From contig CALVMK010000062.1 of assembly GCA_944345545.1 (NCBI GenBank), positions 4,538 through 68,537 of the forward strand: a DNA stretch of 64,000 nucleotides. The letters run 5' to 3'. A program made the position numbers and the translations under genes. A model generated the notes under the pieces. That model searched no databases, was not told the DNA's origin, and saw only the letters and a list, made by a program, of their open reading frames with translations. This DNA is from an uncultured Clostridia bacterium (GTDB lineage: Bacteria > Bacillota > Clostridia > Christensenellales > UBA1242). How positions within the stretch are numbered: position 1 is the stretch's first letter; each line of letters begins with the position of its first letter. This document shows, piece by piece, positions 14,301-53,812 of the stretch.

Positions 14301-17300
14301 AAACAAAACTATAATCAACAATATCACCATCTGAATTTGTTTCTTCAACTTTTAAAATTCTTGAAGAAATTGCAATATTATTTGCACTAACAAGTTCAGG
14401 CCCTTGAACTGTCATATACCAAACGCCATCGTAAGTATTTCCTTCAACTGAACTATTTGAAAATGCAAAACCATAAAAGCTATCTTTAACGTCAGGGTCT
14501 ATTATTCTGTTTACAGATGTGTTATATAAAGATTCCATATCTGTGCCAGCATATTCATCATCTAAAGAAGTATCTGAATTATAATAATAACAATTTTCAA
14601 CTAAACCATAGTTTTGCAAATCTAGATTGACATCAACGCCTAAGAAATTCATTTGAGTGCTGTTTGAATTTTCAATTCTAGAAGCCGAGTAACATCTTCT
14701 AACAATACCGTCAGAAGTGTTTATATAAACAAAGCCTGCACTTAATCTTCCGCTTTCTTTATCACCTAATGTTGTCAACATTATGTTACTGTAAGAATCT
14801 TCAACAATTCCTTCATTTTGATAAACAAAACCTGCACTAACACTTGCCGTTTGAATTCCAGCTCCTGTTGCATGAATTTCATAACTATTTGCATACACAC
14901 CTTTAGCATAACTTAGCCTTATTTCACCAAGGTTATTTATAACAAATCCTGCAGTAGAAGTGTCAGAGCCACTTGATGTTTGATTAACAATTGTTCCATT
15001 CATAAAGAAGCTAGAAGCTATAATTCCTGTGTTTTCATAAACAAACCCAGCAATATTTCCCTGTGCAACAATGTTAAATACAGTTGGAATAATAGATGTG
15101 CTATTAGCAACTTCTAAGCTTAAACCACCCACTCTGCTGTTAGTAATAGAACCATTATTATTGTTTACAACAAACCCTGCCACTCGACTTTGAACTTTAT
15201 CTATATCAATATTGCTATAACCATAGTTTACAACAATGCCTTGAGTTGAAGGTTCTGGTCTTCCCGTTCCATTTACGTAATAAGACACAACTTCACAGTT
15301 TGTAATAATACCGTTATTGGTAATTGCAAAACCAGCAATGTCTACAGATGTAACATTGGTCATACTTAAATTGATGTTTCCACCAAAATAAGTGTTTACC
15401 CTAATATTTTTTAAAGTTGTATCCTGACTTACTTCATCAAACAACGCTAATTTTATTGAAGATTGCTCGTTAGAAACATTGTAGCTTAAAATATGAATTG
15501 TTTTATTGTTTCCATCAAAGCTTCTAATCATTGAAGTACTAATAGGAGTGTAGTCTAAAAGATATATATCTTCTGTTAAAATATAATCTAAAGCTTCTTC
15601 GTTGTTAACAATGTTTAAAAATTTTTCAGCTGAATCAATGATAACTGGTTTATCTTCATTTGTTTCCAAAACTACATTGATAGTAAAGTAATATTCAAGA
15701 TATGTTTTTGTTGGCTCACTTGTGCCATTAGGAATTTGAATTGGAATTCTTAGCAACAAATTTACGCTACCAGTTGTAGCTTGAAGTCCACGTACATAAA
15801 GATTAGAACCGTCATAGCTAAAAGCACAGTAATTGTTAGAAGATATTTGCCCACTTTGTCTATTAAATACTTTGCTAAGTTCAATTCTATCAGGGTTGTA
15901 AGTATCAGCATAGTAAAGATTATCAATGAAATTTGCAACAATAACTCCATTTGAACTATCTAAGTCAAAATCGTATGGCAATTCATCATAAAAACCATTT
16001 ACAATGTAACTATTTTTTTGGTCGTAAGTTTCTTCTGGGTTAGAATTATAATATTTATATTGATTAAATAAATTTAAACTATTAGGAAGATAACTATCAA
16101 CATCAAAGTCAAATTCTAATTTTTGAGTTGTTCCTACATACAAAGTTAAAACATCTTTATTGTACGCATCAGTTTTTAATTGAGTACCTTCAGGATTAAT
16201 CACAAAATCTGTGATTGCCACATAAACAACATCTTCAGCCGTTTCAACAACTCCGTTAATAACTCTTCTTGTAGTTGCTGTTACAATTATGTAATTATCT
16301 CCATTTTTTGGAGTTAAATCTGTGCTTGCATATAGTGTTGTTGTGTAATTTTTTAAACCAGTATTTTCATCAACAGTGTAAGTTAGTGGGTCATAACTTA
16401 CAGTTCCGCTTTCAACATTCTCTATACCTAAAGCATCAATAGTTTGGTCAACATTAACACTTATTGTTACCTCTCCAGAACCTCCTCTTGCAATAATAGC
16501 TTGCTTATCACCATTAACATTTAAGTCTGGCTTTGAAACATGCTGAACAGACAACATAAACTTATTTGTTTTTAAAGCTTCACCATTTTCATTATAAGCA
16601 GTGATAGAAAGCTCATAAATTGTATCGGCGTCAACATCTGAAGGAATGAAAGTTCTCAAATATAACGAACCAATATCTTGAGAAAGATTAGGTTTAAATA
16701 TTCTTATACCATTTGTAATGGTTTCATAACCAAAAGTTTTTCTTACAAATTTAGTTCCATCAACTTTTTCCATTAACCCAAACTTAACTTGATAAGAAGA
16801 ACCTAATATAGTGTTTGATGTTACTTCAATATAGCTATAATTAGAGTATGTAGGATAAAGTTCTACATTTAATAGCCCTTCTTTACCAGGAGCAAGTAAG
16901 GTTTTTGGAATAGTATCATAAACATAATGCATTCTATCAGAACCCTGATAGTCTTCCCAAATAGTAGAATTTAACAAATAATGAGAAGTGTTTATGTAAG
17001 ATAATTGTTGAGTTTCTACAGTAAGATTAAAAGTTGTAGAAACTTTAGTACTGTCAGCATATAATGAAATCTCAAATAATTGACCATCATAATTTAATGA
17101 TTTTAACGAATCATCAAGAATTCCAAATGAAACTTCATAAATTTGTTTAAAATATTTTGCATCTTGAGAATAGATGTCTTCCACAATTTCAGTCATTTCT
17201 TTATTTTTGAAAGCAACTACACCAACATTTTCAATTCTTATGCTTACAAAACCATTTGAAAAAATTCTATAATCATCATAAATATCTATACTTTCAACAC

Positions 17301-20300
17301 CAAAATAACCTATAACTTCTTCTTGAGTAAATGTTCCATCTTCATTATGTTTGGTGATTGTGGTAGTAATTCCATTGTAATTAGAAAAACCATTTTCTTT
17401 TAAAGCATCGCTATTTAAAAAGCTAGCCATTAAATCATCACATTGGTTGCCATTTTCATCTACGTTTTTATCAGTATAAATAACAACTTGAACTGTTTGA
17501 GCAAAAGAATCTACTGGCTCTATTGAAAGTTCATTTGTTTCAGCTTCGATTTTATCTGCTCCATTGTAAAGTTTAACATTAAAAGATTTTACATAAGTTT
17601 CAGCTATTGCATTGTTATATATTTCGTCTAAACCGTTTACATATAATTTTAAGCTTACCTTTATGTTATCATAAACATAATCTTGGATTTTAGCGGTAAC
17701 TATATTATGTACACCAATTTTGGTTCCATCAATTTCCAACCCAACAGTGCTTGGTTCTCCATTAATATCAGTTATAACACTAAGAATCTCTAAATCGTTT
17801 TGTTTTAAATTTATTGCTCTATTTATTGCAATTTTTGATGTTGAAATGGAAGAAGAAACAGAGTCAGAATCTCCGTGTTTTATAGATATAGTAGAATCTA
17901 CACCAAGTTCCCTACCAAAGTAATCAAGTTTAAAATCTTGAATTTTATAAATTATAGTTGCATTATACTCTTTTTTTAATGTGTAATCATATTTTGAAAA
18001 GACTGTAAATGTAAAAGTTCCTGTTACAACATCATTAACAGTTAAATATTCAGAGCCTGTAAACAAAGGAGCATTGTTGCTAACACTTATTCTAATAGAA
18101 GATGTATTGTTTAAACCAAAAAGTGTTTTTAAACTAATAGTATTCCAACTAGCAACAACAGCATTTTCCATATCTGTTAACGACATGCCTTCTGGTTCAT
18201 AATAGAAGAATATTACATAATTTTCATTGTCTTCAGTTTTAAAGGCTAAAGATAAATCAGTGTTTTTGATATCAAATTCACTTATAGAATCAAGTTCTTT
18301 TTCCTGCATGATTGCATTAAAATAAGGATATCTATTATTAGTTAAAGAATCAAAATTCCAAAGTTTATCAGACCCAAAAGAAATGTTTTTGTAAGCATTT
18401 CCATTATCTGGGTAAGTAGGAGGATTATCTATTTCAAGACTATTTGCAATAATTCTATATTCACCACTTTCGCCAAACAAGTATGCGTTTTGCACGTAAG
18501 AAATCAAGGTTATGTTATCTTCATTTCCTGCAAAATTGGAGTTTTTAACACTTGCAAAACATGCATTAACTTCACCGTTAGAAATTTCGCCAACTAAAGA
18601 GCCTAAACTAGAACCTTCATCTAAACCAATTAACACGCTTTCATATGCATTATTATCACCATTAACTTTTACGTAAGAATATGCAAAACTAAATGATAAT
18701 GTTCCATCAGTCATTTTTCCAACTAGTCCACCAACTACATTACCTTTAATGTTAGAAAAAGCATTTTCATATCTATAAAATTCCACCTTACAATAACTTA
18801 TATTGCCAGAATTTTCTCCTGCAATTCCACCAACATAAGATAAGGCGTTTTCATTCGTAACAATACCGTAAAAATTACAATTTGTAATTGTTCCAATATT
18901 AACACTAGCAATTCCACCACTTACATTTTTATCTAATCCATCAATGTTTAAGTTTAAAATATCATTATCTGTAAGAGCTGTAACTGTGCTAGCTTTATAT
19001 TCATCTCCGTCTACCCATGTATCAACAACAACATTGTTAATGGTTCCATTATTAATTAAAGCAACAAAAGCTCCTTTTGCTTCACCAACAAGTGTTACAT
19101 CTTCAACAATAGCACTATTTCCAAGCGTAGTGAACAAAGAAGTTTCACTTAAAATTATAGTGTGAGTAACATCATCTCCTATTTTTTTAGCAAAGAATCC
19201 ACCATTAAATGTAACCGTTTTACCATTATAAGTGTCTAGTGGAGATGTTAAAGGTTGTTGCAAATCTTTTGTTAAAGTGTAATACAAGTCTGGATACTCT
19301 TGTATATAAGCTTTTATTGTATCAATATCTTCTTCTTCATAAGAAGTTTCTCTTGACCTTCCATCTGCAACTTTAACTGGAATATATCTTGCAACATCTT
19401 CTTCACCAACAACATATCTTCCATTAATATAGCAATCTTCTGGTGCAATTCTAATATAACCCGTTCCACCAATAATTTGGTTTTTAGATAGGGTTATTTT
19501 ACCCGTATTATCAACAGAAATAAGTGTTGGAGAAGAATTACTATTAGGTAAAAATTCATAAATTAAATTCGTGTTTAAAGGGTTATTAGATGTGTCCGCA
19601 TGGGCTAAAACATAAGTAATTTGGTCTTGTCTTTCATCTTCGCCTTCAAATTTTTCGATTTCTAAATAAACACCATTTTCTTCAGTAACATTATCTAGTA
19701 TAATATTTTCAACCTTATTTGCTCTACGTATTGTTAAATTGAATGCCCTATTTATCTCTTGTCCAAATTCAACTGCTTTAACTAAAATGTTGTCAGTAAT
19801 CATATTTGCAATAGCAAGTCCACCAGCCACAAGTTGATAGGTTGATTCAGCATTTATTGAAACAGAGTTTGTTTCAGTTATAGTAATTGTATAAAGAGTC
19901 TTTCTATCTAATTCATTAGCTTCTTCAACTAACACAACATCAATGTCCGTAGTTCCAGAAACTTCATTTCCTTGAATAAACCAAGAAAGTTTGTTATAAG
20001 TTGGTTGATTTTGAACATTTCCATTATTAAAAATAACATTAAAATTAACAAAAGTTGAATTGATGTTAGCATCACCAACACTATCTTTTGAATAAAGGGT
20101 TGCACTTGACCTAGAAAGCAACATTGAAGTAATTGGCACATAACTTTCTATGATAAAATATTTTGTAATAGTATATTCAACCTTTTTACCATTTTGCAAA
20201 GTAAAACCTGTTATTTTTGCCCTTACAAGAACCTTTCCTTCACCAGATGCAATAATTTGATTATAATTATTAAGATATAAAGAATTTACTATAGAAGAAG

Positions 20301-22326
20301 TTGATTGATATTCGTTATCTGCAGGAAGTCCGCTTAAAAAAGCGTTTTGATATCCTTCGGCATAAGCATTTTCAAAATCTGCATTTTGTCCTAAGATAAT
20401 GTCATTGCTAAAATCGTATTTAACATTAACATTAGTGTTAGCATTGATTTTTAAATTGACATTTTCACCCCTTTTTATTGAAGCAATAAAAACATCTTGC
20501 CCATCAATAGTGGCTGTTAGCACTCTGCCAATGGAAGAAGTTTCTTGTGGAGTTGGAACAGCCAATGTAACATTATCATCTAAAGCTTTAAAAACTTCTA
20601 CTTTAGCTTTTAAAAGTTGTCCATTTGAAAATCTTATTCTAAGTTCACCAATCTCCTCAAAGTTTTCCTTAGATGTTATTTCAATATAATAAAGATTATA
20701 TGTTTCCCCATCTTTATCGGTCGTGCCCTTATAAATAGGTTGAGCAGATGCTATTTCAAAAGCATTACCAACAGATGTTAAAACGACATCACCAATAACA
20801 GAATTTGTTGGGGAAACAAGAAACTCTATTTGCTTGGTCATAGATTCATTTGAAGTTAAATAAAAAACACTATTTTCACCTTCTTTAACAGCATTATTAA
20901 ATTCAACTTTTTTAGCCCCAACTTTAGGGTTTAAGCTTAAATCTATTGATACATTTTTATTGGCATCAGAAACTACTTTAATATTTCCAGCAACATTTAC
21001 ATTGCCATTTGCAACTACATAAATGGTTGCTCCGCTTGTGGTTTTAATGACATTTTTATCACCTTCTGTTGTATAATTTAATATATTTCCATTAAAATCA
21101 TAAAATATAAAGTTACCAAGTGTCCCTGTTCCTAATTCTATTGTAAGCCCCCTATCACCTTCTGGAACTGTTGATGGGCCTATAACAAAAGATAATTCAA
21201 GACCTCTTACATTTGCATAAAAATCATAAACATCAAAACTTGTTTTATTTTCTACAAGTTCACCCTCTTGATATGTTCTTATAACTGAAACAGTGTCATA
21301 TGCAGATATGATAACTTTTTCAGTTGTAATTTTTTGATCATACTGCGAATGTTTAATTTCAAATACAAGTTCATCAGACCCTACATCACCTTTTGGACTT
21401 ATATAAAAATTATAAACTGAGCCAACAATAGAAGATGATACAACTTCAGCTATATCCCCAAATTTAAACTTAGGTGTAATTATATAATCTGCACTATTAG
21501 CAAGAATTGTAATTAAAAGACTATTTCTACTTTGTAGATTGTTTGCAATTTTAAATTCATAATAACCATTATTGTTTTCTTCTGGAGTAATTGGCTCTTG
21601 ATTTTCACCATTATTGTAATAATAATATTGTGAATACGTTATAGGATTTAAAACATTCAAAAGAATTCTTGTTGTTATTTGAGAATTAGATTTGCTTGTT
21701 GCGATAATTTCAATAGTATTATCAACAGAAACATAATCTTCCGTTACAACTAAAATGTTGTTGTTAATGCTTGCACCAAAAATATTTTCAGCAAGAGAAA
21801 ACTCTACATCTTTTTCCGTTGTATCTATTGGAGAAAAAGAAATCAATTCATTGGTTAAGTTTTTTGGAGTGTTTATTGTAACAAAAGCAAGCGATAAATC
21901 AGAAGATTGTTGAATAGAAGAAACTTTTTTTATTGAACTAACATAAAAACTTGAACTTTTTTGACCATCTAAAGCCGTTACAACAACTTGAACATTATTA
22001 ACTATTCCAGTAGCTGTAACTGTTATTTCACTGATGTTTCCACTAACAAACTTTGTTTTAGCAACAACCTTTTCACTAGTAGTGCTTGCTAAAACTTGTT
22101 TGCTAACATTGTCGGGAGCACCTTCAACAGAAACAGCAAAAGTGCTACTTGCAGTGTTATCTTCCCCTAATTCTAATACAAGTTGATTTTGAACTAAAGA
22201 ATCAGGTAAAACAACTTTAACATTTTTATAAGGGTCGCCACATGCAGTAAGCATAAAAGAAACGCCTACGATTAACATAAGCATCAATGCTATAGGAAAG
22301 GTTAAAGTTTTCTTTAAAAGTTTCAT
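5350..22326 (-). CDS. Giant surface lipoprotein, 5658 aa: Ig-like modules alternating with at least five blocks of GLUG-like beta-helix repeats (putative adhesin or envelope protein)
   Basis: Uninterrupted 16977-nt ORF in the supplied track. RBS is ACGGAGGAAGA-ATG. The N-terminus MKLLKKTLTFPIALMLMLIVGVSFMLTAC|GDPYK is a lipoprotein signal. Motifs of the form (A/V)GG(I/L)(V/A)G.N.G.I..(C/S) recur many times, for example YVGGIAGENSGNISYC, VVGGLVGKMTDGTL, AGFVYENTGIIASS and AAGGIVGENYGYLF. Block starts resemble G(T/S)..NP(F/I).I. Confidence 0.9.
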   Translation of the reverse strand: MKLLKKTLTFPIALMLMLIVGVSFMLTACGDPYKNVKVVLPDSLVQNQLVLELGEDNTASSTFAVSVEGAPDNVSKQVLASTTSEKVVAKTKFVSGNISEITVTATGIVNNVQVVVTALDGQKSSSFYVSSIKKVSSIQQSSDLSLAFVTINTPKNLTNELISFSPIDTTEKDVEFSLAENIFGASINNNILVVTEDYVSVDNTIEIIATSKSNSQITTRILLNVLNPITYSQYYYYNNGENQEPITPEENNNGYYEFKIANNLQSRNSLLITILANSADYIITPKFKFGDIAEVVSSSIVGSVYNFYISPKGDVGSDELVFEIKHSQYDQKITTEKVIISAYDTVSVIRTYQEGELVENKTSFDVYDFYANVRGLELSFVIGPSTVPEGDRGLTIELGTGTLGNFIFYDFNGNILNYTTEGDKNVIKTTSGATIYVVANGNVNVAGNIKVVSDANKNVSIDLSLNPKVGAKKVEFNNAVKEGENSVFYLTSNESMTKQIEFLVSPTNSVIGDVVLTSVGNAFEIASAQPIYKGTTDKDGETYNLYYIEITSKENFEEIGELRIRFSNGQLLKAKVEVFKALDDNVTLAVPTPQETSSIGRVLTATIDGQDVFIASIKRGENVNLKINANTNVNVKYDFSNDIILGQNADFENAYAEGYQNAFLSGLPADNEYQSTSSIVNSLYLNNYNQIIASGEGKVLVRAKITGFTLQNGKKVEYTITKYFIIESYVPITSMLLSRSSATLYSKDSVGDANINSTFVNFNVIFNNGNVQNQPTYNKLSWFIQGNEVSGTTDIDVVLVEEANELDRKTLYTITITETNSVSINAESTYQLVAGGLAIANMITDNILVKAVEFGQEINRAFNLTIRRANKVENIILDNVTEENGVYLEIEKFEGEDERQDQITYVLAHADTSNNPLNTNLIYEFLPNSNSSPTLISVDNTGKITLSKNQIIGGTGYIRIAPEDCYINGRYVVGEEDVARYIPVKVADGRSRETSYEEEDIDTIKAYIQEYPDLYYTLTKDLQQPLTSPLDTYNGKTVTFNGGFFAKKIGDDVTHTIILSETSLFTTLGNSAIVEDVTLVGEAKGAFVALINNGTINNVVVDTWVDGDEYKASTVTALTDNDILNLNIDGLDKNVSGGIASVNIGTITNCNFYGIVTNENALSYVGGIAGENSGNISYCKVEFYRYENAFSNIKGNVVGGLVGKMTDGTLSFSFAYSYVKVNGDNNAYESVLIGLDEGSSLGSLVGEISNGEVNACFASVKNSNFAGNEDNITLISYVQNAYLFGESGEYRIIANSLEIDNPPTYPDNGNAYKNISFGSDKLWNFDSLTNNRYPYFNAIMQEKELDSISEFDIKNTDLSLAFKTEDNENYVIFFYYEPEGMSLTDMENAVVASWNTISLKTLFGLNNTSSIRISVSNNAPLFTGSEYLTVNDVVTGTFTFTVFSKYDYTLKKEYNATIIYKIQDFKLDYFGRELGVDSTISIKHGDSDSVSSSISTSKIAINRAINLKQNDLEILSVITDINGEPSTVGLEIDGTKIGVHNIVTAKIQDYVYDNIKVSLKLYVNGLDEIYNNAIAETYVKSFNVKLYNGADKIEAETNELSIEPVDSFAQTVQVVIYTDKNVDENGNQCDDLMASFLNSDALKENGFSNYNGITTTITKHNEDGTFTQEEVIGYFGVESIDIYDDYRIFSNGFVSIRIENVGVVAFKNKEMTEIVEDIYSQDAKYFKQIYEVSFGILDDSLKSLNYDGQLFEISLYADSTKVSTTFNLTVETQQLSYINTSHYLLNSTIWEDYQGSDRMHYVYDTIPKTLLAPGKEGLLNVELYPTYSNYSYIEVTSNTILGSSYQVKFGLMEKVDGTKFVRKTFGYETITNGIRIFKPNLSQDIGSLYLRTFIPSDVDADTIYELSITAYNENGEALKTNKFMLSVQHVSKPDLNVNGDKQAIIARGGSGEVTISVNVDQTIDALGIENVESGTVSYDPLTYTVDENTGLKNYTTTLYASTDLTPKNGDNYIIVTATTRRVINGVVETAEDVVYVAITDFVINPEGTQLKTDAYNKDVLTLYVGTTQKLEFDFDVDSYLPNSLNLFNQYKYYNSNPEETYDQKNSYIVNGFYDELPYDFDLDSSNGVIVANFIDNLYYADTYNPDRIELSKVFNRQSGQISSNNYCAFSYDGSNLYVRGLQATTGSVNLLLRIPIQIPNGTSEPTKTYLEYYFTINVVLETNEDKPVIIDSAEKFLNIVNNEEALDYILTEDIYLLDYTPISTSMIRSFDGNNKTIHILSYNVSNEQSSIKLALFDEVSQDTTLKNIRVNTYFGGNINLSMTNVTSVDIAGFAITNNGIITNCEVVSYYVNGTGRPEPSTQGIVVNYGYSNIDIDKVQSRVAGFVVNNNNGSITNSRVGGLSLEVANSTSIIPTVFNIVAQGNIAGFVYENTGIIASSFFMNGTIVNQTSSGSDTSTAGFVINNLGEIRLSYAKGVYANSYEIHATGAGIQTASVSAGFVYQNEGIVEDSYSNIMLTTLGDKESGRLSAGFVYINTSDGIVRRCYSASRIENSNSTQMNFLGVDVNLDLQNYGLVENCYYYNSDTSLDDEYAGTDMESLYNTSVNRIIDPDVKDSFYGFAFSNSSVEGNTYDGVWYMTVQGPELVSANNIAISSRILKVEETNSDGDIVDYSFVYADGYRYGSSKNPIIIRNADEFNQVFGGDTANVSSSVAFYYDLVQNKVFGNYRIVDNIDLSSLLSDETGLTLRSTEMSLVPTYSNNGEVNGLGLIDGNSFTVSGIELVSTLGGANTSYGLFKELDNGAVIMNLNLEIKGVNATGVNYVGALSGTIKDSKIININISNGLASENAVIYGYNLAGGVAGRIIGNSYLSNISVENLTVVAGNDVGSSSQQFYNRSIRNNISYAGGIAGVIDIYTNINDYKFSTILSDPNAVGLKASGNTSVYGATVGGIVGFLGPQTMLQDALYEISSSQGEYSQKLVAYKFAAGGIVGENYGYLFMVRTEHSSNDQLEIENNYSNYYNNSSAEINRGNLKLFEYENSTSYKPKFIGGIVGEFVTGKLDKAYSKLNVTSTLAEYAGGIIGAITDRDNSSFGGLNDYGYNQTYSLTFSELYSTGDLLANTGAGGIFGLIEDGVWKQIELEKINAINYLSVPEKQGTLSGEYTIKDGKKYLNNVYDIYFMPEGSNALNILINQTNYDVNALEKILTNNDEFYFNKSLSSAVISENPNEELNGEIMISTDVQKISELINSSLVDYANEMNKIFRNAGWDQEYWTTETEDSVPHLFPHLTFKVEPSVIYIREASDLVYLQQYKNKTFIIVGNDVDGCIIKVGDYLATTKQGFTVDGFSGLLRGRTDTEEYGFDFTVYNSTEKITAPLFNGTLTGAQFSNFVITGVGKGVSADYDYRPNISSILVNTATGTTFNNITVRDCSISYTIPSTESNGYNIGLLCAVAEKSSFSDINFDNTTNAGNEVEVKIPSDTDLLNKLPNKMEISVGVLTGYLGTASSVSKISNIKFNDSFINIYLQPLNNTNKDLSLNVGHIAGASGSIDLDLINYENINDSEFNLKTNILCGENYYINTLNAGGLIGKVVGSVDANLAQKYSGQDGLTFNYSLYSLLTDNEDDAKEVKAKTGSVGGLFGSLSGSTSYQFLVDELNSNLPFRYIVNNNIKLDIYDNNDNSDEIFYFGGALGNVTDKLLINNVKTDGEVEITSNTVSYVGGVVGYVKQSFNANYLWSSLSLDFNCNAEKDNVFAGIVGYVGYSVNGEESSGVISTIQNTLNESYFDINAKKIIYGGIVGAVPTQKTTLQSNILNMRITNSVSGGEIIVGSNKEIAPNSVRVGGIVGSLSGLGSVSDSDSSNVKIVYNLTYTDLQFKQKPSSVSYVGGLVGLGARGAILHTNYSLASIIFPYSRDENSHIGALMGAVSNATSTDGNSEFQNYYSNQLALMTATDTEVNSLVVKNIGYEQTLSNISNNQNFQSTINLISSVHYGSKLNPFHIEGNYIKANNNNVAEYNTTSKNWAIIENKEVAESVYNLYLGAYGEDPFSTAMPERKYFVIDSIDSVDNAVYNIQNITLNNGAIFGDGIKISIETEIDSSNNYISNNFINILDENSFVTGVQVAVDIRTYDDSQLTHYYVEEIAGENNSTSKIATAYYGGLVGINKGIVYACNTINSQNRSDDAKVQTTMGTAGGISVNNVPDTYGTENVSVNNLIVGGLVAINETTGYIADSFSMVDIVTDSSTVENVYLAGLVGKNKGQIDSCYSTGFVQNNANFTNGYTYSFSYDENENSVSNSYSIAKAKVKTDAVTKGEIGVFGKGAGESNYYDINSTEISSNNVKELTVDDMSTYTFNGTTFNTGILNDNLSTIKFTQNPLINYGYPYFGGTGFMAEGNVSNYMIVETGDGTKENPFQIQSAGKWQQLTKSGGNGKIVTIQSDYYGTSLYNWDAHFELIYNIDFESAEVETINPVGTLNSTNQYLDEKNNYFSGTFNGNDNIISNVEIVGFDNTKNNIYQNSIASGLFGYVGPRLETANPAEIKNVILENVTVENFANSSKYKLNSSAGGIAGIAKDAIITNCYVINSSITGFNNAGGIVGYAESGSVEISKCANISSSVKSIGNRNTLEETSVDDNNIIVYVDITAGGILGFVNENIDVNIAVNINECYNTGEVVAGSEVADNGSFSDPSMADSAYAGGILGAGFTNRSEDYSNLDQETIDKIVNGEINSIITIKDCYNKGNIRANANVPDPENNRYFNLGKLDDDGNFIEDENGDVQQFNDAYKLVAKTYLMHSKYENSMAQGDHNYQSIIYAVYIRMVMRDAYASGIANNDADIISCYNIGEITNNEDDIVETIKKETNGVKNEDIKGRIDITYSLLAENYVAGRSGEFNMYTTQEVGKEEGDIPEGSVFRRDWSVVNGKVTRDGKNAGADLQIELPTLTSKVVEITSVSSGMSALAGAGTAITTKLISKGIGKLVTAVVPVAGVIAEAAILILFWDNPKSDTCLLVPNADGNINIIVGENSVGIYSIQTSELTHDNLIMNTSYYNNTLVGEGENKKGLTYDDDVEMFTGSYVAPIGYNSDILNSFSVANTCKTDGDNYNTGKTQSKENVMYDDFNGINDECANLTIDELKNMATYGETTIDYTNIIDDGDQYIYYTDRDEITINSAEYQVNTLTYKDNQYLYFSEEYSVESEPSKQDYFVVQTDNGKQILNTKDYSIFDLETTLDENYKEYYTGAGSLINKNITNYQRIYYQSGSITTSGNTATIKNPYVIIYEDVNDNVGRIVRLTEEGGTLTFNLKSNETSTEYINDYKNISITGGEPEEALKGFAGYLVKGVLGENSFTTDENGNVTGIAQNGYDYSFDKTKDYQTVCTIGFNDITIGQAYIINDNPLYLGEISNKITFEEKSDEFYSYEINGETKQKNIITYSYEIDGTPVIENPYYIYDSQNNKVQISLQPVFEGDLANVNLIYRSYPKDGGICYVIGYLRQRTISKEFISEEQQTIINDAIDNGSAQNGGSFKAQIWDFADSGAWTIDSSGIINDGLPYLKNLPIDSYSYVSYDNSNNTYNVYISQDDSKAKTLQIGETLTLFKDTENVDYKIIDGVHYIGYVQSGEETIYIASYKVFDLGIVSFTRYWTWEDYYSITVDANDYIYTEKFNGVLFKK

Positions 22327-39851: not shown

Positions 39852-41636
39852 ATGTATACAGTCAAACAGATTAAAGACACATTTTTAAATTATTTTGAAA
39901 AAAATGGACACAAAATAATAGATGGAGCATCAATAGTTCCAGAAAACGACCCCACGCTTTTATTTATAAACGCTGGAATGGCACCAATGAAAAAAGTTTT
40001 TACTGGTGAAGAAGCCCCACAAGCAAAAAGAATGTGTAACATTCAAAATTGCATTAGAACTATAGATATTGACAGCATAGGCGATAGACATCACCTATCT
40101 AGTTTTTATATGCTAGGCTCATGGAGTATTGGCGATTATTTTAAAGAAGGTGCAATAAGTTACGCATTTGAATTGTTAACAAAAGGTTTTAGCATACCAA
40201 AAGAAAAATTGTACGTAACAGTTTTTTCTGGCGATGAAAAAAGAAAAATACCAGCGGACACAGAAAGCATTGAATTTTGGAAAAAAGTTGGAATAGCTGA
40301 TAGTCATATAATTAGATGTGGTTTTGAAGATAATTTTTGGCGTATTGGTGGCGACCATGACGCAGGTCCTTGTGGTCCTTGCACAGAAATGTTTTACGAT
40401 ACAGGTGCAAAGCACGGAGCAAGTTTAGAAGAAAGCGGAATATTTGATGATAAAAACAGATACATTGAAATTTGGAATGCTGGTGTTTTTATGGAATATT
40501 ATCAAGATGAAAATGGTAACTATTCTAAATTAAACATGAAAAGCGTCGACACTGGTTCTGGACTAGAAAGAATGTTAATGACATTAAACGGCTTAGAAAG
40601 TGCCTATGACACAGAGATATTTTTACCGATAATAGAATATCTAAAAAATAATTGTTCATCACCTATTATAGAAAGTTTAAGAATAATTGCAGACCATGTT
40701 AGAACAAGCATTTTAATTTTAAATGCAAAAGTAGAGCCTAGCAATGTTAAACGTGGATATGTTTTAAGAAGATTAATAAGACGTGCCATTAGACACATGA
40801 GAACAATTGGATTAAGCGACGATAAAATTCCTGAACTTTTAGATTTAACAATGCAAAATATGAAAAACATAGATTTAGAACCAAAATGGAATTTTTCAAA
40901 GCAAGAAATCATTGAGAAATTTATGGCTGAATTTGCTAAATTTTCAAAAACACTTGAGCAAGGATTAAAAGCCTTCAACGAATATGTAAAAGATGAAAAA
41001 AATATTGTTAACAACAAGTTAGATAGTAAAATCGCATTTAAACTATTTGATACCTACGGTTTTCCACTTGAAATTACAAAAGAACTTGCAAAAGAAAAGA
41101 ATTTAATAGTTGATGAAAAAGAATTTAATGAACTTTTTGAAAAACATAGAGAAATTTCTAAAACAGAAGGAACATTTAAAAGCGGTTTAGCTGACACTAG
41201 CGAAGAAACTATCAAACTTCACACTGCTACTCACCTTCTTCAAGCAGGTTTAAGACATGTTCTTGGCAATTATGTTAGTCAAAAAGGAAGCAATATAACT
41301 CCTGAAAGGCTTAGATTTGACTTCAATTTTGAAAGAAAAATGACTGCTGATGAATTGAAAGCAGTAGAAGATTTTGTTAACGAAGCAATAAGTAAAGAAA
41401 TTCCTGTAATACGTGAAGAAATGAAGTTAGAAGATGCAAAGAAAACTGGAGCAATCGGGCTCTTTACTGATAAATATGGTGATAACGTTTCTGTTTACAC
41501 AATTGGCAACATTAGTAAAGAACTTTGCAGTGGTCCTCATGTTTCTAACACCAAAGAGTTGGGACACTTTAAAATTTTAAAAGAAGAAAGTTCTTCAAGC
41601 GGTATTAGAAGAATAAAGGCAGTAGTAGAAAAATAA
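39852..41636 (+). CDS. alaS: Alanine--tRNA ligase, unusually short form (594 aa; catalytic and editing cores, no C-Ala domain)
   Basis: The N-terminus MYTVKQIKDTFLNYFEKNGHKII..DPTLLFINAGM and WRIGG..GPCGPCTEMFYD are class-II AlaRS catalytic motifs. HTATHLL and CSGPHV are the editing-domain zinc motifs. The ORF ends 25 aa after CSGPHV. Confidence 0.85.
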   Translation: MYTVKQIKDTFLNYFEKNGHKIIDGASIVPENDPTLLFINAGMAPMKKVFTGEEAPQAKRMCNIQNCIRTIDIDSIGDRHHLSSFYMLGSWSIGDYFKEGAISYAFELLTKGFSIPKEKLYVTVFSGDEKRKIPADTESIEFWKKVGIADSHIIRCGFEDNFWRIGGDHDAGPCGPCTEMFYDTGAKHGASLEESGIFDDKNRYIEIWNAGVFMEYYQDENGNYSKLNMKSVDTGSGLERMLMTLNGLESAYDTEIFLPIIEYLKNNCSSPIIESLRIIADHVRTSILILNAKVEPSNVKRGYVLRRLIRRAIRHMRTIGLSDDKIPELLDLTMQNMKNIDLEPKWNFSKQEIIEKFMAEFAKFSKTLEQGLKAFNEYVKDEKNIVNNKLDSKIAFKLFDTYGFPLEITKELAKEKNLIVDEKEFNELFEKHREISKTEGTFKSGLADTSEETIKLHTATHLLQAGLRHVLGNYVSQKGSNITPERLRFDFNFERKMTADELKAVEDFVNEAISKEIPVIREEMKLEDAKKTGAIGLFTDKYGDNVSVYTIGNISKELCSGPHVSNTKELGHFKILKEESSSSGIRRIKAVVEK

Positions 41637-41694: not shown

Positions 41695-41775
41695 GCATCG
41701 GAAGTGCTCGCTTTTAGCGAGCAGGCACCAAAATGGTGCAAAAAATTTCGCAAAGCGAAATTTTGCTTCCGATGC
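41695..41775 (+). repeat. GC-rich four-way-junction (cloverleaf-shaped) element, copy A
   Basis: Perfect pairing throughout. Outer stem: GCATCGGAAG/CTTCCGATGC. H1: GCTCGC-tttta-GCGAGC. H2: GCACCA-aaa-TGGTGC. H3: AAAATTTCGC-aaa-GCGAAATTTT. Confidence 0.75.
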
Positions 41776-41847
41776 CAAGCTCGCACAAACTTCAAATTAT
41801 TAAAAAAAATCATCACGAACAAACGATATAGCAAAAAAGGGGAAAAA

Positions 41848-47058: not shown

Positions 47059-47140
47059 GCGGGCGTGGCGGAATGGCAGACGCGCTTGTTTAAGGGGCAA
47101 GTGGGAAACCGTATGGGTTCAAGTCCCGTCGCCCGCACCA
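47059..47140 (+). tRNA. tRNA-Leu (type II, long variable arm); the anticodon reads AAG in my fold; CCA is encoded
   Basis: Acceptor: GCGGGCG/CGCCCGC. D arm: GCG-GAATGGCAGA-CGC. Anticodon stem: CTTGT/GCAAG. Anticodon loop: TT-AAG-GG (47090-47096). Variable arm is 11 nt. T arm: ATGGG-TTCAAGT-CCCGT. Discriminator is A, followed by CCA. Very similar overall to Bacillus tRNA-Leu. Confidence 0.85.
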
Positions 47141-52110: not shown

Positions 52111-52139
52111 AACCGACAAATATTATTCGTCGGTTTTTT
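52111..52139 (+). terminator. Rho-independent terminator after the yjzC-like gene
   Basis: Stem AACCGAC/GTCGGTT with an 11-nt loop, followed by TTTTTT. Confidence 0.7.
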
Positions 52140-52238
52140 AATTATATATTGTTTTTAAGTTAAAAGAATTATTTTAAAATAATTAATTTTAAAACTAAAT
52201 TATTTTTTTAATGAAAATTAATTAAAAAAATAAATATA

Positions 52239-52312
52239 CGGAAAGTGCGGGCTAAAGCCCGCTAGCCACTCTTTGAGTGGCTTAAATTTTGCGTTGCAAA
52301 ATTTACTTTCCG
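52239..52312 (+). repeat. GC-rich four-way-junction (cloverleaf-shaped) element, copy B
   Basis: Outer stem: CGGAAAGT/ACTTTCCG. H1: GCGGGC-taaa-GCCCGC. H2: AGCCACTC-ttt-GAGTGGCT. H3: AAATTTTGC-gtt-GCAAAATTT. The arm order on the + strand is the same as in copy A. The element abuts the gpmI stop codon (52313-52315). Confidence 0.75.
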
Positions 52313-53812
52313 TTAGTGTTTAATCATACTGCACGTCATAGAATCAGGTTTTTTAATGTTAAGCAACTCTAAAACTGTAGGAGCAACATTAGCAAGAATA
52401 CCATTTTCTATAAGCTTAACCTTTTTAAATTTTTCACTTGCCAATATAAAAGGAACAGGATTAGAACTATGTGCGGTTACAGGTTTGCCGTTTTTATCTA
52501 ATAAGCATTCAGCATTTCCATGGTCAGCAGTAATAATACAATCTCCGCCAGCTAAGATTGTTGCCATGCAAACCGCATATGCACATTTGTCCACAACTTG
52601 AATTGCTCTTTTTGTTGCTTCCATGTTTGCAGTATGCCCAATCATGTCAGGGTTAGAGAAATTAATTAAAATAAAATCATATTTATTTAAACTAATTGCA
52701 TTCATAGCATCTTCTGCAATCTCAAACGCTCTCATTTCTGGAAATTCACTAAAATCTTTAACATTTTTTGTTTCAATCAGTTTTCTATCTTCATTTTCAA
52801 AAGGTTCTTCCCTTCCTCCATTAAAAAAGAAAGTAACATGTGCATATTTTGTGGTCTCAGCAATATGATATTGCTTTAAACCCGCTTTAGAAATAATTTC
52901 ACTTAACCCATTTCTAACCACTTCTGCAGGATAAGCAACATGAACATTTTTTAATTCGTCTGAGTAATTAGTCATTGTAACAAAATATAAGTTGCTTAAT
53001 TTTTTAGTAGGAAATTTTGAAAAATTATCTTCTGTTATCGCTTCAGTTAATTCACGAGGTCTATCCGTTCTAAAATTGAAGAAAATCACACTATCTCCAG
53101 AATTTATAATTTTAGGTTTGCCAATTATAGTTGGTTCAATAAATTCATCATAAATTCCATCATCATAACTTTCTTTTATAGCTTCAGTTGCGCTTTGATA
53201 AAATCTTTCTGCTTGTCCTAAGCATATTGCATCATAGGCTTTCATAACTCTATCATATCTCTTTTCCCTATCCATAGCATAAAACCTGCCCATGATTGTA
53301 GCGATTTCAGCATTTTTATTTTTCATAAAATCTTCAAGCTGGGAAACATAGTTTAAAGCACTATCTTTTAAAGTATCTCTGCCATCTGTAAAAACATGAA
53401 CATATATTTTTTCAACACCTGAGTTATATGCCATGTCAATTAGAGTTTTTAAATGACTTATATGAGAATGAACTCCACCATCAGAAACCAAACCCATTAA
53501 ATGTAAAACTTTTGAATGTTTAAAAGCTCGTTTAAACTCTTCATTGTTTTGAAATTTACCAGATTTTATATCTTCATTTATCCTGCTTAAATCTTGAAGT
53601 ACAATTCTTCCAGCCCCCAAGTTTAAATGTCCCACTTCACTATTACCCATTTGACCATCACTCAAGCCCACAGCTTCTCCACTAGCTTTTATTAAAGTGT
53701 TAGGATATTTTAACTTTAATTTATCAATATTAGGTGTTCCTTGTTGCTTTATAGCGTTACCATATGTTTCATTGCTTTCACCAAACCCATCTAAAATAAT
53801 TAATGTAACCAT
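52313..53812 (-). CDS. gpmI: 2,3-bisphosphoglycerate-independent phosphoglycerate mutase
   Basis: MVTLIILDGFG..GNSEVGHLNLGAGR..ADHGNAE are canonical iPGM motifs. 499 aa. Confidence 0.95.
   Translation of the reverse strand: MVTLIILDGFGESNETYGNAIKQQGTPNIDKLKLKYPNTLIKASGEAVGLSDGQMGNSEVGHLNLGAGRIVLQDLSRINEDIKSGKFQNNEEFKRAFKHSKVLHLMGLVSDGGVHSHISHLKTLIDMAYNSGVEKIYVHVFTDGRDTLKDSALNYVSQLEDFMKNKNAEIATIMGRFYAMDREKRYDRVMKAYDAICLGQAERFYQSATEAIKESYDDGIYDEFIEPTIIGKPKIINSGDSVIFFNFRTDRPRELTEAITEDNFSKFPTKKLSNLYFVTMTNYSDELKNVHVAYPAEVVRNGLSEIISKAGLKQYHIAETTKYAHVTFFFNGGREEPFENEDRKLIETKNVKDFSEFPEMRAFEIAEDAMNAISLNKYDFILINFSNPDMIGHTANMEATKRAIQVVDKCAYAVCMATILAGGDCIITADHGNAECLLDKNGKPVTAHSSNPVPFILASEKFKKVKLIENGILANVAPTVLELLNIKKPDSMTCSMIKH

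What the first reader, a model, noticed from the sequence alone, without database searches (positions are those of the whole stretch)
52239..52312. Second copy of the cloverleaf element, with compensatory stem changes, abutting the gpmI stop codon
The arm order on the + strand is the same as in copy A:
- Outer stem: CGGAAAGT/ACTTTCCG.
- H1: GCGGGC-taaa-GCCCGC.
- H2: AGCCACTC-ttt-GAGTGGCT.
- H3: AAATTTTGC-gtt-GCAAAATTT.

The H1 and H2 sequences differ completely from copy A, yet both arms still pair perfectly. The 5' arm of the outer stem (CGGAA(A)GT) and the AAATTT..GC..AAATTT flavour of H3 are retained.

The element ends 0-1 nt from the TAA of gpmI, which is on the minus strand. Read on that strand, it is followed by UAUAUUUAUUUUUUU, so here it could act as an elaborate terminator or 3' stabiliser. 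Copy A lies in sense orientation between two + strand genes, so the element's orientation relative to flanking genes is not fixed. That is typical of mobile or REP-like repeats.
Basis: seen in the sequence. Interest (0 to 1): 0.65.

Follow-up and report, generated by a model that had tools for sequence, protein, structure and literature searches.

The report
Conserved cloverleaf hairpin element beside genes
The 74 bases right after the gpmI stop codon fold into a flawless three-hairpin cloverleaf whose shape, but not sequence, is kept across related uncultured gut Clostridia and recurs at two other loci, so it is a real, undescribed structured element, most likely an mRNA-end protecting module rather than a tRNA or a plain terminator.

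Summary
Window 52239-52312 is an outer stem that encloses three perfect hairpins (MFE -39 kcal/mol, z about -7.6 on either strand). Shuffled controls essentially never produce such a fold. Only one other copy exists in the 64 kb, copy A at 41695-41775.

The gpmI copy is orthologously retained in relatives whose GpmI is 76-99% identical. It keeps the same orientation and usually lies 0-3 nt from the stop codon. Two of its arms are completely rewritten yet always perfectly paired. Copy A is retained in a relative with 92% identical LeuRS and shows the same pattern.

A third locus (L263) carries the same core: outer stem CGGAAAG plus an AAATTTTGC hairpin. A more distant relative has a cloverleaf of identical architecture with unrelated sequence. 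None of them matches an Rfam family or is called as a tRNA, and copy B has no real phage or plasmid match.

A plain terminator is unlikely. Canonical terminators lie further downstream, and leader-type copies sit 16-18 nt before start codons.

Loops are purine-rich, with GNA triloops, on the gene-sense strand whatever the element's orientation. This favours an RNA role. My best guess, at low-to-moderate confidence, is a REP-like exonuclease roadblock or mRNA-end "bookend". The total absence of G-U pairs keeps a DNA-level or mobile-element reading alive.

The parts
52238..52313 (-). Cloverleaf B: a four-way junction element, written here on the gpmI-sense strand. Layout is ACGGAAAGT | AAATTTTGC-aac-GCAAAATTT | a | AGCCACTC-aaa-GAGTGGCT | a | GCGGGC-ttta-GCCCGC | ACTTTCCGT.
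52284..52304 (.). AT-rich hairpin AAATTTTGC-gtt-GCAAAATTT. This is the sequence-conserved arm. Its AAATTT/AAATTT core is invariant across the aligned family members, and it always lies next to one strand of the outer stem.
52247..52282 (.). The two GC-rich variable hairpins (GCGGGC-taaa-GCCCGC at 52247-52262 and AGCCACTC-ttt-GAGTGGCT at 52264-52282). Orthologues carry different sequences here but are always perfectly paired.
52313..53812 (-). gpmI (499 aa). Its TAA stop codon (52313-52315) touches the outer stem, and its last base can pair within it.
52113..52139 (.). Hairpin CCGAC..GTCGG followed by a T-run, shared by the convergent genes yjzC (+) and gpmI (-). It lies about 105 nt beyond the cloverleaf on the gpmI transcript and is the probable true terminator. 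It is perfect in the 99% strain L081 and carries one mismatch in the window.
   Evidence: read by eye. The simple terminator scan did not flag it.
41695..41775 (.). Cloverleaf A, the sister copy. On the + strand it reads GCATCGGAAG | TGCTCGCT-ttt-AGCGAGCA | GCACCA-aaa-TGGTGC | AAAATTTCGC-aaa-GCGAAATTTT | CTTCCGATGC. It lies 58 nt after the alaS stop and 72 nt before the leuS ATG (41848).

Best explanation
The element is a cis-acting structured RNA module carried in the untranslated parts of mRNAs. For copy B that is the 3' UTR of gpmI. For copy A it is the spacer between alaS and leuS.

Once transcribed it folds into a very stable, fully paired four-way junction. This is an outer stem plus three 6-10 bp arms capped by triloops, with 0-2 unpaired junction bases.

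Because it has no conserved single-stranded nucleotides, it most likely acts by shape and stability rather than by binding a ligand. I infer that it is a roadblock placed at the edge of an ORF.
- Placed just after a stop codon, it would stop 3'-to-5' exonucleases (PNPase or RNase R type) from entering the coding region.
- Placed just before a Shine-Dalgarno sequence, it would stop 5'-to-3' RNase J-type decay.
- When it lies within a ribosome footprint of the stop codon, it would also be unwound and refolded by terminating ribosomes, as described for REP elements close to stop codons.

The family has a sequence-conserved core (outer stem CGGAARG plus an AAATTTYGC hairpin) and two free arms. I infer that these arms are rewritten quickly, probably by replication template switching, which creates perfect hairpins in one step.

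Shown here: structure, conservation, covariation, positions and the strand bias of the loops. Inferred: transcription, the exonuclease block, the ribosome coupling and the template-switch origin.
For: **1. The fold is real and extreme.**

**2. Structure is conserved while sequence turns over.**
- gpmI-3' copies occur in L081 (99% GpmI identity, identical element), L082/L087 (81%), L085/L093-97/L218 (80%) and L088 (76%).
- All share the same orientation. The arms differ but pairing is perfect.
- Copy A's orthologue in L092 (92% LeuRS) keeps the outer stem and the AT hairpin. Its other two arms are unrelated in sequence, although the flanking coding DNA aligns closely, at mostly identical positions.

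**3. Formal pair count on six elements.**
- 205 of 205 cells are paired.
- 31 of 42 pairs change on both sides, and none changes on one side only.
- Covariation is 0.68 against 0.18 in shuffles (0 of 500 reach it). Slid controls give 32-49% paired.

**4. Position next to translation signals.**

| Position | Locus | Distance |
|---|---|---|
| After a stop codon | window | 0 nt |
| After a stop codon | L085 | overlaps the stop |
| After a stop codon | L088 | 3 nt |
| After a stop codon | L083, independent locus | 4 nt |
| Before an ATG | L092 | 16 nt |
| Before an ATG | L263 | 18 nt |

**5. Upstream of the terminator.** In L082, L085, L088 and L083 the element lies between the stop codon and a separate canonical terminator. 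It is therefore inside the transcript, not at its end. In the window the only candidate is a hairpin plus T-run about 105 nt downstream, which the simple terminator scan did not flag.

**6. Loop strand bias.**
- On the gene-sense strand, 19 of 24 loops are purine-majority.
- Eight loops are GNA triloops and none is TNC.
- The GNA loops are split 4 and 4 between the two DNA orientations of the element. P is 4e-5 against sense-strand composition.
- The selected folded strand therefore follows transcription, not the element's own orientation.

**7. No mobile-element partner seen.** Pfam annotation of 20 ORFs across 39.8-63.5 kb gave housekeeping-type or unassigned proteins and no transposase or recombinase family.

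**8. Mechanism for perfect stems.** Template switching that creates and maintains perfect hairpins is documented (PMC8794818).
Against: - There are no transcript data, and no promoter or processing site was mapped.
- Not one G-U pair or mismatch occurs in 309 base pairs of nine distinct elements. This includes 147 bp in orthologues that would have been examined whatever their pairing. RNA-only selection normally tolerates G-U, so this points to constraint on both strands, to a DNA-level requirement, or to very recent templated birth of the arms.
- Triloops closed by C-G with GNA sequence are also the classic hyperstable DNA mini-hairpin (my own knowledge).
- The element occurs in both orientations relative to transcription, like mobile DNA.
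- In L082/L087 it lies about 115 nt from the stop codon, and in the window copy A lies 58 and 72 nt from its two neighbours. Adjacency to translation signals is therefore not obligatory.
- The purine bias of the loops could partly reflect general sense-strand purine loading (56% purine). The purine-majority test gives only P = 0.04 against a 60% null.
Confidence: 0.4

Rival explanations
1. It is a DNA-level, non-autonomous mobile palindromic element, REP-, PATE- or MITE-like. It folds as single-stranded DNA into a four-way junction that is recognised by a trans-acting enzyme such as an HUH or tyrosine transposase or a junction-specific enzyme. Any effect on RNA would be a by-product.
For: - Several loci share a sequence core: gpmI 3', alaS-leuS and L263.
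- Both orientations relative to genes occur.
- Pairing is strictly Watson-Crick, so both strands fold equally well.
- Copies A and B lie in the same orientation on the chromosome.
- These are GC-rich palindromes in a 29% GC genome. This resembles mitochondrial GC clusters and hairpin elements (PMC4478555, PMC2800124).
- The architecture recalls T-shaped ITR hairpins with AAA/TTT triloops that HUH Rep proteins act on (my own knowledge).
Against: - The gpmI copy is kept at the orthologous site, with perfect pairing, across GpmI divergence down to 76% while its sequence turns over. A neutral remnant would decay, and no degenerate copies were found.
- Density is low: 2 per 64 kb, and about 1 per 10-20 kb locus in relatives.
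- No target-site duplication is present. The flanks extend the inverted repeat instead.
- No transposase or recombinase was found among the 20 annotated window ORFs.
- Copy B has no real phage or plasmid match.
- GNA and purine-rich loops follow the transcribed strand.
Confidence: 0.25
2. It is a double-stranded-DNA feature: a cruciform-type "double cloverleaf" extruded under negative supercoiling. It would serve as a binding site or topological device for a junction-binding or nucleoid protein (HU, RuvA, RecU or gyrase type) between transcription units.
For: - Perfect palindromes with 3-nt spacers are ideal for extrusion.
- The invariant AAATTT core could nucleate melting.
- Some copies lie between convergent or closely packed genes.
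- There are no G-U pairs.
Against: - Arms of 6-10 bp are short for stable extrusion in vivo.
- Loop composition is asymmetric with respect to transcription, which a symmetric double-stranded-DNA role does not predict.
- Positions track stop and start codons rather than the middles of intergenic regions.
Confidence: 0.1
3. It is an unusually elaborate intrinsic (Rho-independent) terminator of gpmI.
For: - On the gpmI strand the outer stem is followed by UAUAUUUAUUUUUUU.
- It lies in the 3' region of convergent genes.
- The simple scan calls one inner hairpin terminator-like, on the opposite strand.
Against: - The tail is not U-rich in L082 or L088 and only weakly so in L085.
- L082, L085, L088 and L083 each have a separate canonical A-tract/hairpin/T-tract terminator downstream.
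- Copy A's orthologue and L263 end 16-18 nt before an ATG, with a Shine-Dalgarno sequence in between. Termination there would abolish expression.
Confidence: 0.07
4. It is a stand-alone small RNA gene or a tRNA-like molecule that is processed out of the transcript.
For: It is 74-85 nt long and has a cloverleaf outline.
Against: - ARAGORN and the Rfam tRNA model do not call it.
- Loops are 3-4 nt, not 7. There are no D-, T- or anticodon-loop features and no conserved unpaired bases.
- The simple promoter scan calls nothing upstream of B on either strand, nor on the gene-sense strand upstream of A, L092 or L263. Its only hits there lie on the opposite strand, downstream, or inside the element.
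Confidence: 0.05

Closest known systems
REP / BIME elements of Enterobacteria and Pseudomonas (repetitive extragenic palindromes; PMC2817692, PMC3116915)
   Same: - Both are small, GC-rich, palindromic, extragenic elements found after genes or between cistrons, in either orientation.
- Both are transcribed within mRNAs (presumed here).
- REPs are known to protect upstream mRNA from 3' exonucleases. When within about 15 nt of a stop codon they also interfere with terminating ribosomes (my own knowledge: Liang, Rudd and Deutscher 2015, not held in the library).
   Different: - A REP is a single imperfect hairpin with a conserved 5' GTAG, present in hundreds of copies and mobilised by a RAYT transposase.
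- This element is a four-way junction of four perfect helices, has no GTAG and is sparse.
- Only one arm plus the outer stem is conserved in sequence.
- No RAYT was seen in the window.
Intrinsic (Rho-independent) terminators
   Same: Both have GC-rich stems and lie 3' of a gene. Copy B has a U-rich tail.
   Different: - This structure is branched.
- The tail is not conserved.
- A canonical terminator lies further downstream in the orthologues read.
- Other family members sit directly upstream of ribosome-binding sites.
5'-terminal and intercistronic stabiliser stem-loops of Firmicutes mRNAs that block RNase J1 (for example the ermC and aprE leader type; my own knowledge)
   Same: Both are stable structures placed just upstream of a Shine-Dalgarno sequence, as in L092 and L263.
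   Different: Known stabilisers are simple hairpins or bound ribosomes. They are not a recurring four-way junction family that is also found after stop codons.
T-shaped hairpins of parvovirus/AAV inverted terminal repeats and other HUH-endonuclease substrates (my own knowledge)
   Same: - An outer stem encloses short, perfectly paired arms capped by AAA/TTT-type triloops.
- The two orientations are equivalent ("flip/flop").
- Pairing is strictly Watson-Crick.
   Different: - Those have two arms, not three, and a long outer stem. They lie at genome termini with a Rep gene.
- This element is chromosomal, lies next to housekeeping genes, and has no Rep or HUH gene nearby.
Mitochondrial GC clusters, double-hairpin elements and repetitive hairpin-forming elements (PMC4478555, PMC2800124)
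   Same: Both are GC-rich palindromic modules scattered in intergenic DNA of very AT-rich genomes, with fast turnover.
   Different: - Those are organellar, numerous and polymorphic.
- They are not a fixed three-arm junction kept at orthologous sites.
tRNA and tRNA-like structures
   Same: Both have a cloverleaf outline and are about 75 nt long.
   Different: - Loops are triloops.
- There are no conserved tRNA nucleotides.
- Stems are 6-13 bp.
- ARAGORN and the Rfam tRNA model do not call it.

Membership tests
tRNA / tRNA-like | Recognised by tRNA detectors: 7-nt anticodon and T loops, a D arm and conserved nucleotides. | tested here: not met
   ARAGORN finds only tRNA-Leu at 47059-47140. The Rfam tRNA model hits only true tRNAs in the window and in 11 loci. 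Loops are 3-4 nt.
Any Rfam 15 family | A covariance-model score at or above the family's gathering threshold. | tested here: not met
   No hit at gathering threshold on the window or on 11 loci that carry copies. With permissive E-values, A and B give only scattered sub-threshold hits that differ between the two.
Intrinsic terminator | A hairpin immediately followed by a conserved U-tract, at the transcript end. | tested here: not met
   The U-rich tail occurs only in the window copy. It is absent or weak in L082, L085 and L088, each of which has a separate canonical terminator downstream. L092 and L263 copies lie 16-18 nt before an ATG.
REP / REPIN | A single imperfect palindrome of 20-40 nt with a conserved 5' GTAG-type head. 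| tested here: not met
   The element has four helices and is 74-89 nt long. The conserved head is CGGAARG and there is no GTAG.
REP / REPIN | High copy number (tens to hundreds per genome) and an associated RAYT gene. | not testable with these tools
   Only 64 kb of this genome is available, and it holds 2 copies. No Y1/RAYT domain occurs among the 20 ORFs scanned. Whole genomes of the lineage could not be fetched.
MITE | Terminal inverted repeats plus a direct target-site duplication, with near-identical dispersed copies. | tested here: not met
   The outer stem could serve as terminal inverted repeats. However, the flanks are inverted, not direct (TATA/TATA, CTAA/TTAG, GCAT/ATGC). Copies are 55-74% identical outside the orthologous groups.
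Integron attC site | R''/L''-L'/R' boxes (RYYYAAC...GTTRRRY), extrahelical bases, cassette arrays and an integrase. | tested here: not met
   Stems are perfect with no bulged bases. The CTAAC/GTTAG-like ends occur only in L085 and come from the stop codon. The neighbourhood is conserved housekeeping synteny, argS-gpmI-yjzC-rlmN.
Riboswitch / ligand-binding junction RNA (for example the SAM-I four-way junction) | Conserved unpaired nucleotides in the junction or internal loops that form a pocket. | tested here: not met
   Junctions hold 0-3 non-conserved nucleotides and loops vary freely.
Phage- or plasmid-borne element | Sequence similarity to phage or plasmid records. | tested here: not met
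   blastn of the element (copy B) against 50,697 phage and 72,556 plasmid records returns only chance 21-40 nt matches.

The most novel reading that the evidence does not exclude
The cloverleaf may be a shape-defined element of a new kind. It would be a four-way junction selected purely for architecture. One relative has the same geometry with unrelated sequence.

Its free arms would be continually rewritten as perfect palindromes by template switching. It would work in both orientations, either as a ribosome-coupled "bookend" that sets the decay boundaries of individual ORFs, or as the substrate of an unrecognised junction-specific enzyme that also moves it around.

Either way it would be a family defined by topology rather than by sequence, and therefore invisible to homology-based RNA or repeat annotation.
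Probability: 0.15. Interest if true: 0.75.

Novelty: new variant of a known kind. Interest (0 to 1): 0.55.

Why it matters
If the RNA reading is right, this lineage of uncultured low-GC gut Clostridia uses a compact, orientation-independent four-way junction as a modular mRNA-end protector. It sits exactly at ORF borders. That would be a more elaborate counterpart of REP elements in a phylum where such elements are poorly known, and a candidate stable insulator part for synthetic biology.

The data also give a clean natural example of complete helix turnover with zero mismatched intermediates. This bears on how RNA and DNA hairpins are born and maintained, for example by template switching.

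If the DNA reading is right, it would be a new type of palindromic mobile or junction-forming element.

In either case it shows that topology-based scans can find families that sequence- and covariance-model libraries miss.

Tried and rejected
- **tRNA or known RNA family.** Rejected.
- **Exact-protein look-ups of the window's own GpmI and LeuRS.** Not on record. The genome itself is absent from that collection.
- **Genome-contig scan with GpmI.** The best relative is only 57% identical, so it was uninformative for orthology. It served as a 1.28 Mb negative control.
- **Metagenome pattern scan.** 53 hits, of which only 3 are real (L218, L254, L263). L259 looked like a 17-nt inverted repeat of the core but lies inside an ABC-ATPase gene, so it is chance.
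- **Variants with two or four hairpins.** Nothing above shuffle level.
- **Degenerate or G-U-containing copies.** MFE scans of the window and of about 120 kb of lineage loci found none.
- **Allowing G-U in the descriptor.** This only added low-score noise.
- **Covariance model.** MAFFT would not keep my structural alignment of all nine elements, so no model was built. A six-row alignment stayed consistent with the structure and was used for the pair counts.
- **Promoters I eyeballed just upstream of the L092 and L263 copies.** The scan did not confirm them, so I dropped the idea.
- **CodY box, parS/Noc site, Spo0A box and -10 element readings of the AT hairpin.** Considered from memory and dropped for lack of fit.
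- **Retron, integron and bridge-RNA analogies.** Dropped. No reverse transcriptase, integrase or recombinase is present, and the variable parts are fully self-paired.
- **Literature searches.** They found no description of such an element.
Full report
**1. The observation**

- The minus-strand ORF 52313-53812 is gpmI. Its homologues carry iPGM_N and Metalloenzyme domains and are named 2,3-bisphosphoglycerate-independent phosphoglycerate mutase.
- The TAA stop codon occupies 52313-52315, so the element abuts it. The last base of the stop codon can extend the outer stem to 9 bp.
- RNAfold gives the cloverleaf as both MFE and centroid on each strand: -39.4 and -38.8 kcal/mol, z = -7.6 and -7.9, with 0 of 200 shuffles as good.
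- DNA parameters give the same fold (-28.2 kcal/mol, z = -8.8).

**2. Is it more than chance?**

I wrote a descriptor that requires an outer stem of at least 5 bp enclosing three adjacent perfect hairpins.

| Sequence searched | Result |
|---|---|
| The window (64 kb) | this element and copy A (41695-41775), scores 30 |
| 60 dinucleotide shuffles of the window (3.84 Mb) | one hit, score 16 |
| 20 random sequences with the element's composition | none |
| Unrelated genomes (1.28 Mb) | one hit, score 22 (L033) |
| Viral contigs (1.0 Mb) | none |

- An MFE-based scan of the whole window, both strands, shows A (-46) and B (-41 kcal/mol) as the only outliers. Every other cloverleaf-shaped fold is weaker than -29.
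- Variants with two or four hairpins do not exceed shuffle level.

**3. What it is not**
- ARAGORN and Rfam find only a tRNA-Leu at 47059.
- Permissive Rfam searches of both copies give only scattered sub-threshold hits that differ between the two.
- Eleven related loci that carry copies give no family either.
- blastn of copy B against phage and plasmid collections returns only chance matches.
- Pfam annotation of 20 ORFs across 39.8-63.5 kb gave housekeeping-type proteins such as alaS, rlmN, yjzC, argS, rplKA, nusG and secE (plus leuS, identified from its homologues), or no family at all. None is a transposase, recombinase or reverse transcriptase.

**4. Orthologous loci of copy B**

The genome itself is not in the collections. 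The nearest species representative has only 57% identical GpmI. The protein database did give a graded series, and I fetched their contigs.

| Locus | GpmI identity | Cloverleaf | Distance from stop |
|---|---|---|---|
| L081 | 99% | identical element | abuts the stop |
| L085/L086, L093-L097, L218 | 80% | outer ACTAACGGAAAGC; arms CTAAATTTT-gaa-, GCCGCCT-gaa-, GCGGGCGG-aag- | overlaps the stop codon |
| L082/L087 | 81% | same outer stem CGGAAAGC; arms CCAAATTTT-gaa-, ACCGCCT-ttta-, GCGGAAAGC-ttt- | about 115 nt |
| L088 | 76% | outer GGAAAGCT; arms ATTTTGAAAC-aga-, ATCAATCGAA-gaa-, TGACGCA-aat- | 3 nt |
| L083/L084 | 74% | none at gpmI; yjzC has changed orientation | not applicable |

- All copies share one orientation relative to gpmI, with the AT-rich arm first.
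- All stems are perfect.
- In L082, L085 and L088 a canonical A-tract/hairpin/T-tract terminator lies 27-60 nt further downstream. In the window, a hairpin plus T-run shared with the convergent gene lies about 105 nt downstream.
- The element is therefore an inherited, structure-conserved part of the gpmI 3' region. It is not an insertion polymorphism and not the terminator itself.

**5. Copy A and further loci**

At the DNA level A(-) aligns with B(-). Both then read outer stem, AT arm and two GC arms, ending ...GC.CGC-loop-GC.GC-ACTT(T)CCG. Copy A is thus inverted relative to its + strand neighbours alaS and leuS.
- In L092 (92% identical LeuRS, alaS-leuS synteny kept) the cloverleaf is present 25 nt after the alaS stop and 16 nt before the leuS ATG.
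- There the outer stem (GCATCGGAAGT/ACTTCCGATGC) and the AT arm (AAATTTCGC-aag-GCGAAATTT) are nearly identical to the window.
- The other two arms are unrelated: GTTCTAGGC-aga- and GACGCATT-taaa- against TGCTCGCT-ttt- and GCACCA-aaa-. Yet the flanking coding DNA aligns closely, at mostly identical positions.
- In L089/L090 (78%) and L091 (74%), leuS lies next to rplJL with an L10 leader and there is no cloverleaf.

A metagenome pattern scan for the core found a third locus type (L263, which is the same locus as L254).
- It reads CGCGGAAAGC | CTTGC-gga-GCAAG | AAAAAGC-gca-GCTTTTT | AAATTTTGC-agg-GCAAAATTT | GCTTTCCGCG.
- It ends 18 nt before the ATG of a 307-aa ORF, with an AAAGGAG Shine-Dalgarno sequence in between.

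L083 carries a cloverleaf of the same geometry but with an unrelated sequence (outer stem CCATGCGGCGC).
- It starts 4 nt after the stop codon of a minus-strand gene and 20 nt before a bidirectional terminator.

Sequence similarity to B, tested against random cloverleaves of matched geometry (null mean about 0.52):

| Element | Identity to B | P |
|---|---|---|
| L254 | 0.71 | <0.001 |
| L092 | 0.61 | 0.002 |
| Copy A | 0.62 | 0.015 |
| L083 | 0.50 | 0.7 (no sequence relationship) |

**6. Pairing statistics**
- Nine distinct elements contain 309 base pairs, all Watson-Crick.
- Every pairwise comparison shows 11-28 two-sided changes and no one-sided change.
- On a six-row alignment consistent with the structure, 205 of 205 cells pair. 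31 of 42 pairs change on both sides.
- Covariation is 0.68 against 0.18 in shuffles (0 of 500 reach it). Sliding the partner by 1-3 columns gives 32-49% paired.
- The six AAATTT/AAATTT pairs of the AT arm are invariant in all six rows, including L033.

Caveats:
- The alignment was fitted to the structure.
- Part of the set was found with a scan that accepts only perfect pairing.
- However, the four orthologues that would have been inspected anyway (147 bp) are also flawless.
- MFE scans that allow G-U and bulges found no degenerate copies in the window or in about 120 kb of lineage loci.

**7. Which strand folds?**

Perfect Watson-Crick pairing means both strands can fold, which would suit a DNA-level role. 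The loops, however, are asymmetric.
- On the strand that is sense to the co-oriented gene, 19 of 24 loops are purine-majority.
- Eight loops are GNA triloops and none is TNC.
- The eight are split evenly between elements whose AT arm comes first and those whose AT arm comes last.
- P is 4e-5 for GNA against sense-strand composition. The purine-majority test is weaker, P = 0.04 against a 60% null.

The selected strand thus follows transcription, not the element's intrinsic orientation. This favours a transcript as the functional form. GC skew suggests the minus strand is the leading strand here. With two copies, nothing can be concluded about replication bias.

**8. Mechanism**

There are no conserved unpaired nucleotides, so a ligand- or sequence-specific RNA pocket is unlikely.

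Positions cluster at ORF borders. Copies lie 0-4 nt after stop codons at two independent loci and 16-18 nt before start codons at two others. Wherever a terminator is visible, the element lies upstream of it.

My best explanation, at confidence about 0.4, is a modular and very stable RNA roadblock that protects the adjacent ORF from exonucleolytic decay.
- It would block 3'-to-5' decay when placed after a stop codon.
- It would block 5'-to-3' RNase J-type decay when placed before a Shine-Dalgarno sequence.
- When it overlaps the stop codon, it must be opened by terminating ribosomes. This recalls what is known for REP elements within 15 nt of stop codons (my own knowledge).

The wholesale replacement of arms without mismatched intermediates is best explained by replication template switching, which creates perfect hairpins in a single event (PMC8794818). 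This step is inferred.

Rivals:
- A DNA-level mobile palindromic element, about 0.25. It is supported by strict Watson-Crick pairing, both orientations and a shared core at three loci. It is weakened by long orthologous retention, the absence of decayed copies, the absence of a target-site duplication or transposase, and the loop bias.
- A cruciform or junction-protein site, about 0.1.
- A terminator, about 0.07.
- A stand-alone small RNA, about 0.05.

**9. Comparison with what is known, and novelty**

Functionally the closest analogue is the REP/BIME class. Membership fails on the features I could test: there are four helices rather than one, no GTAG head, and low density. Copy number per genome and RAYT association could not be tested.

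The architecture recalls T-shaped ITR hairpins and mitochondrial GC-cluster or hairpin elements (PMC4478555, PMC2800124), but only by analogy.

Literature searches found no description of a three-arm perfect cloverleaf repeat in bacteria.

I rate it a new variant of a known kind, namely small structured extragenic elements. Interest is moderate. The structure and covariation are striking and undescribed. The likely role is generic, and function is untested.

Noticed in passing
window 5350-22326 (-): A single uninterrupted ORF of 5658 aa, a giant protein that occupies a quarter of the window.
   Followed up: no
window 39852-41636 (+); L089, L091: The AlaRS-like ORF is only 594 aa (tRNA-synt_2c core plus tRNA_SAD). 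It lies directly upstream of leuS only in the window and in L092. In relatives at 74-78% LeuRS identity, leuS lies next to divergent rplJ-rplL with an L10 leader. Copy A therefore sits at a rearrangement junction.
   Followed up: partly
window 52113-52133; L081:3566-3586: The hairpin shared by the convergent genes yjzC and gpmI has one mismatch in the window. It is A.C on the + strand and G.U on the - strand. In the 99% identical strain the hairpin is perfect. Ordinary terminator stems here therefore do tolerate wobble pairs, unlike the cloverleaf.
   Followed up: partly
window 41781-41788: AGCTCGCA, 5 nt downstream of copy A, repeats the arm sequence GCTCGC of its first hairpin. It could compete for pairing with AGCGAGC and give an alternative structure.
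   Followed up: no
L083:5051-5130: A cloverleaf of identical geometry but unrelated sequence: outer stem CCATGCGGCGC, MFE -59 kcal/mol. It lies 4 nt after the stop codon of an unannotated 293-aa gene and before a bidirectional terminator.
   Followed up: partly
L033:1-130: A distant goat-gut Clostridia MAG has a looser cloverleaf: outer stem ATGGTTA, with first arm GACAAATTTT-taaag-AAAATTTGTC, which carries the same AAATTT core. A separate perfect 13-bp hairpin sits just upstream.
   Followed up: no
L093:4868-4926: A weak three-hairpin fold (score 19, near shuffle level) downstream of rplA.
   Followed up: no
L092:197-224: A promoter-like match (CTGACG-16-TAAAAT, 9 of 12) lies inside the cloverleaf and uses the AT arm as its -10 element. 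It is at chance level, so I did not pursue it.
   Followed up: no
L259:1205-1269: A 17-nt inverted repeat CGGAAAG-N-AAATTTTGC that mimics the family core lies inside an ABC-transporter ATPase gene. I judged it coincidental.
   Followed up: yes
L085:188-481; L093:7971-8264: A 97-aa GIY-YIG domain ORF lies next to argS in the relatives at 80% GpmI identity. No counterpart was noted at that position in the window.
   Followed up: no
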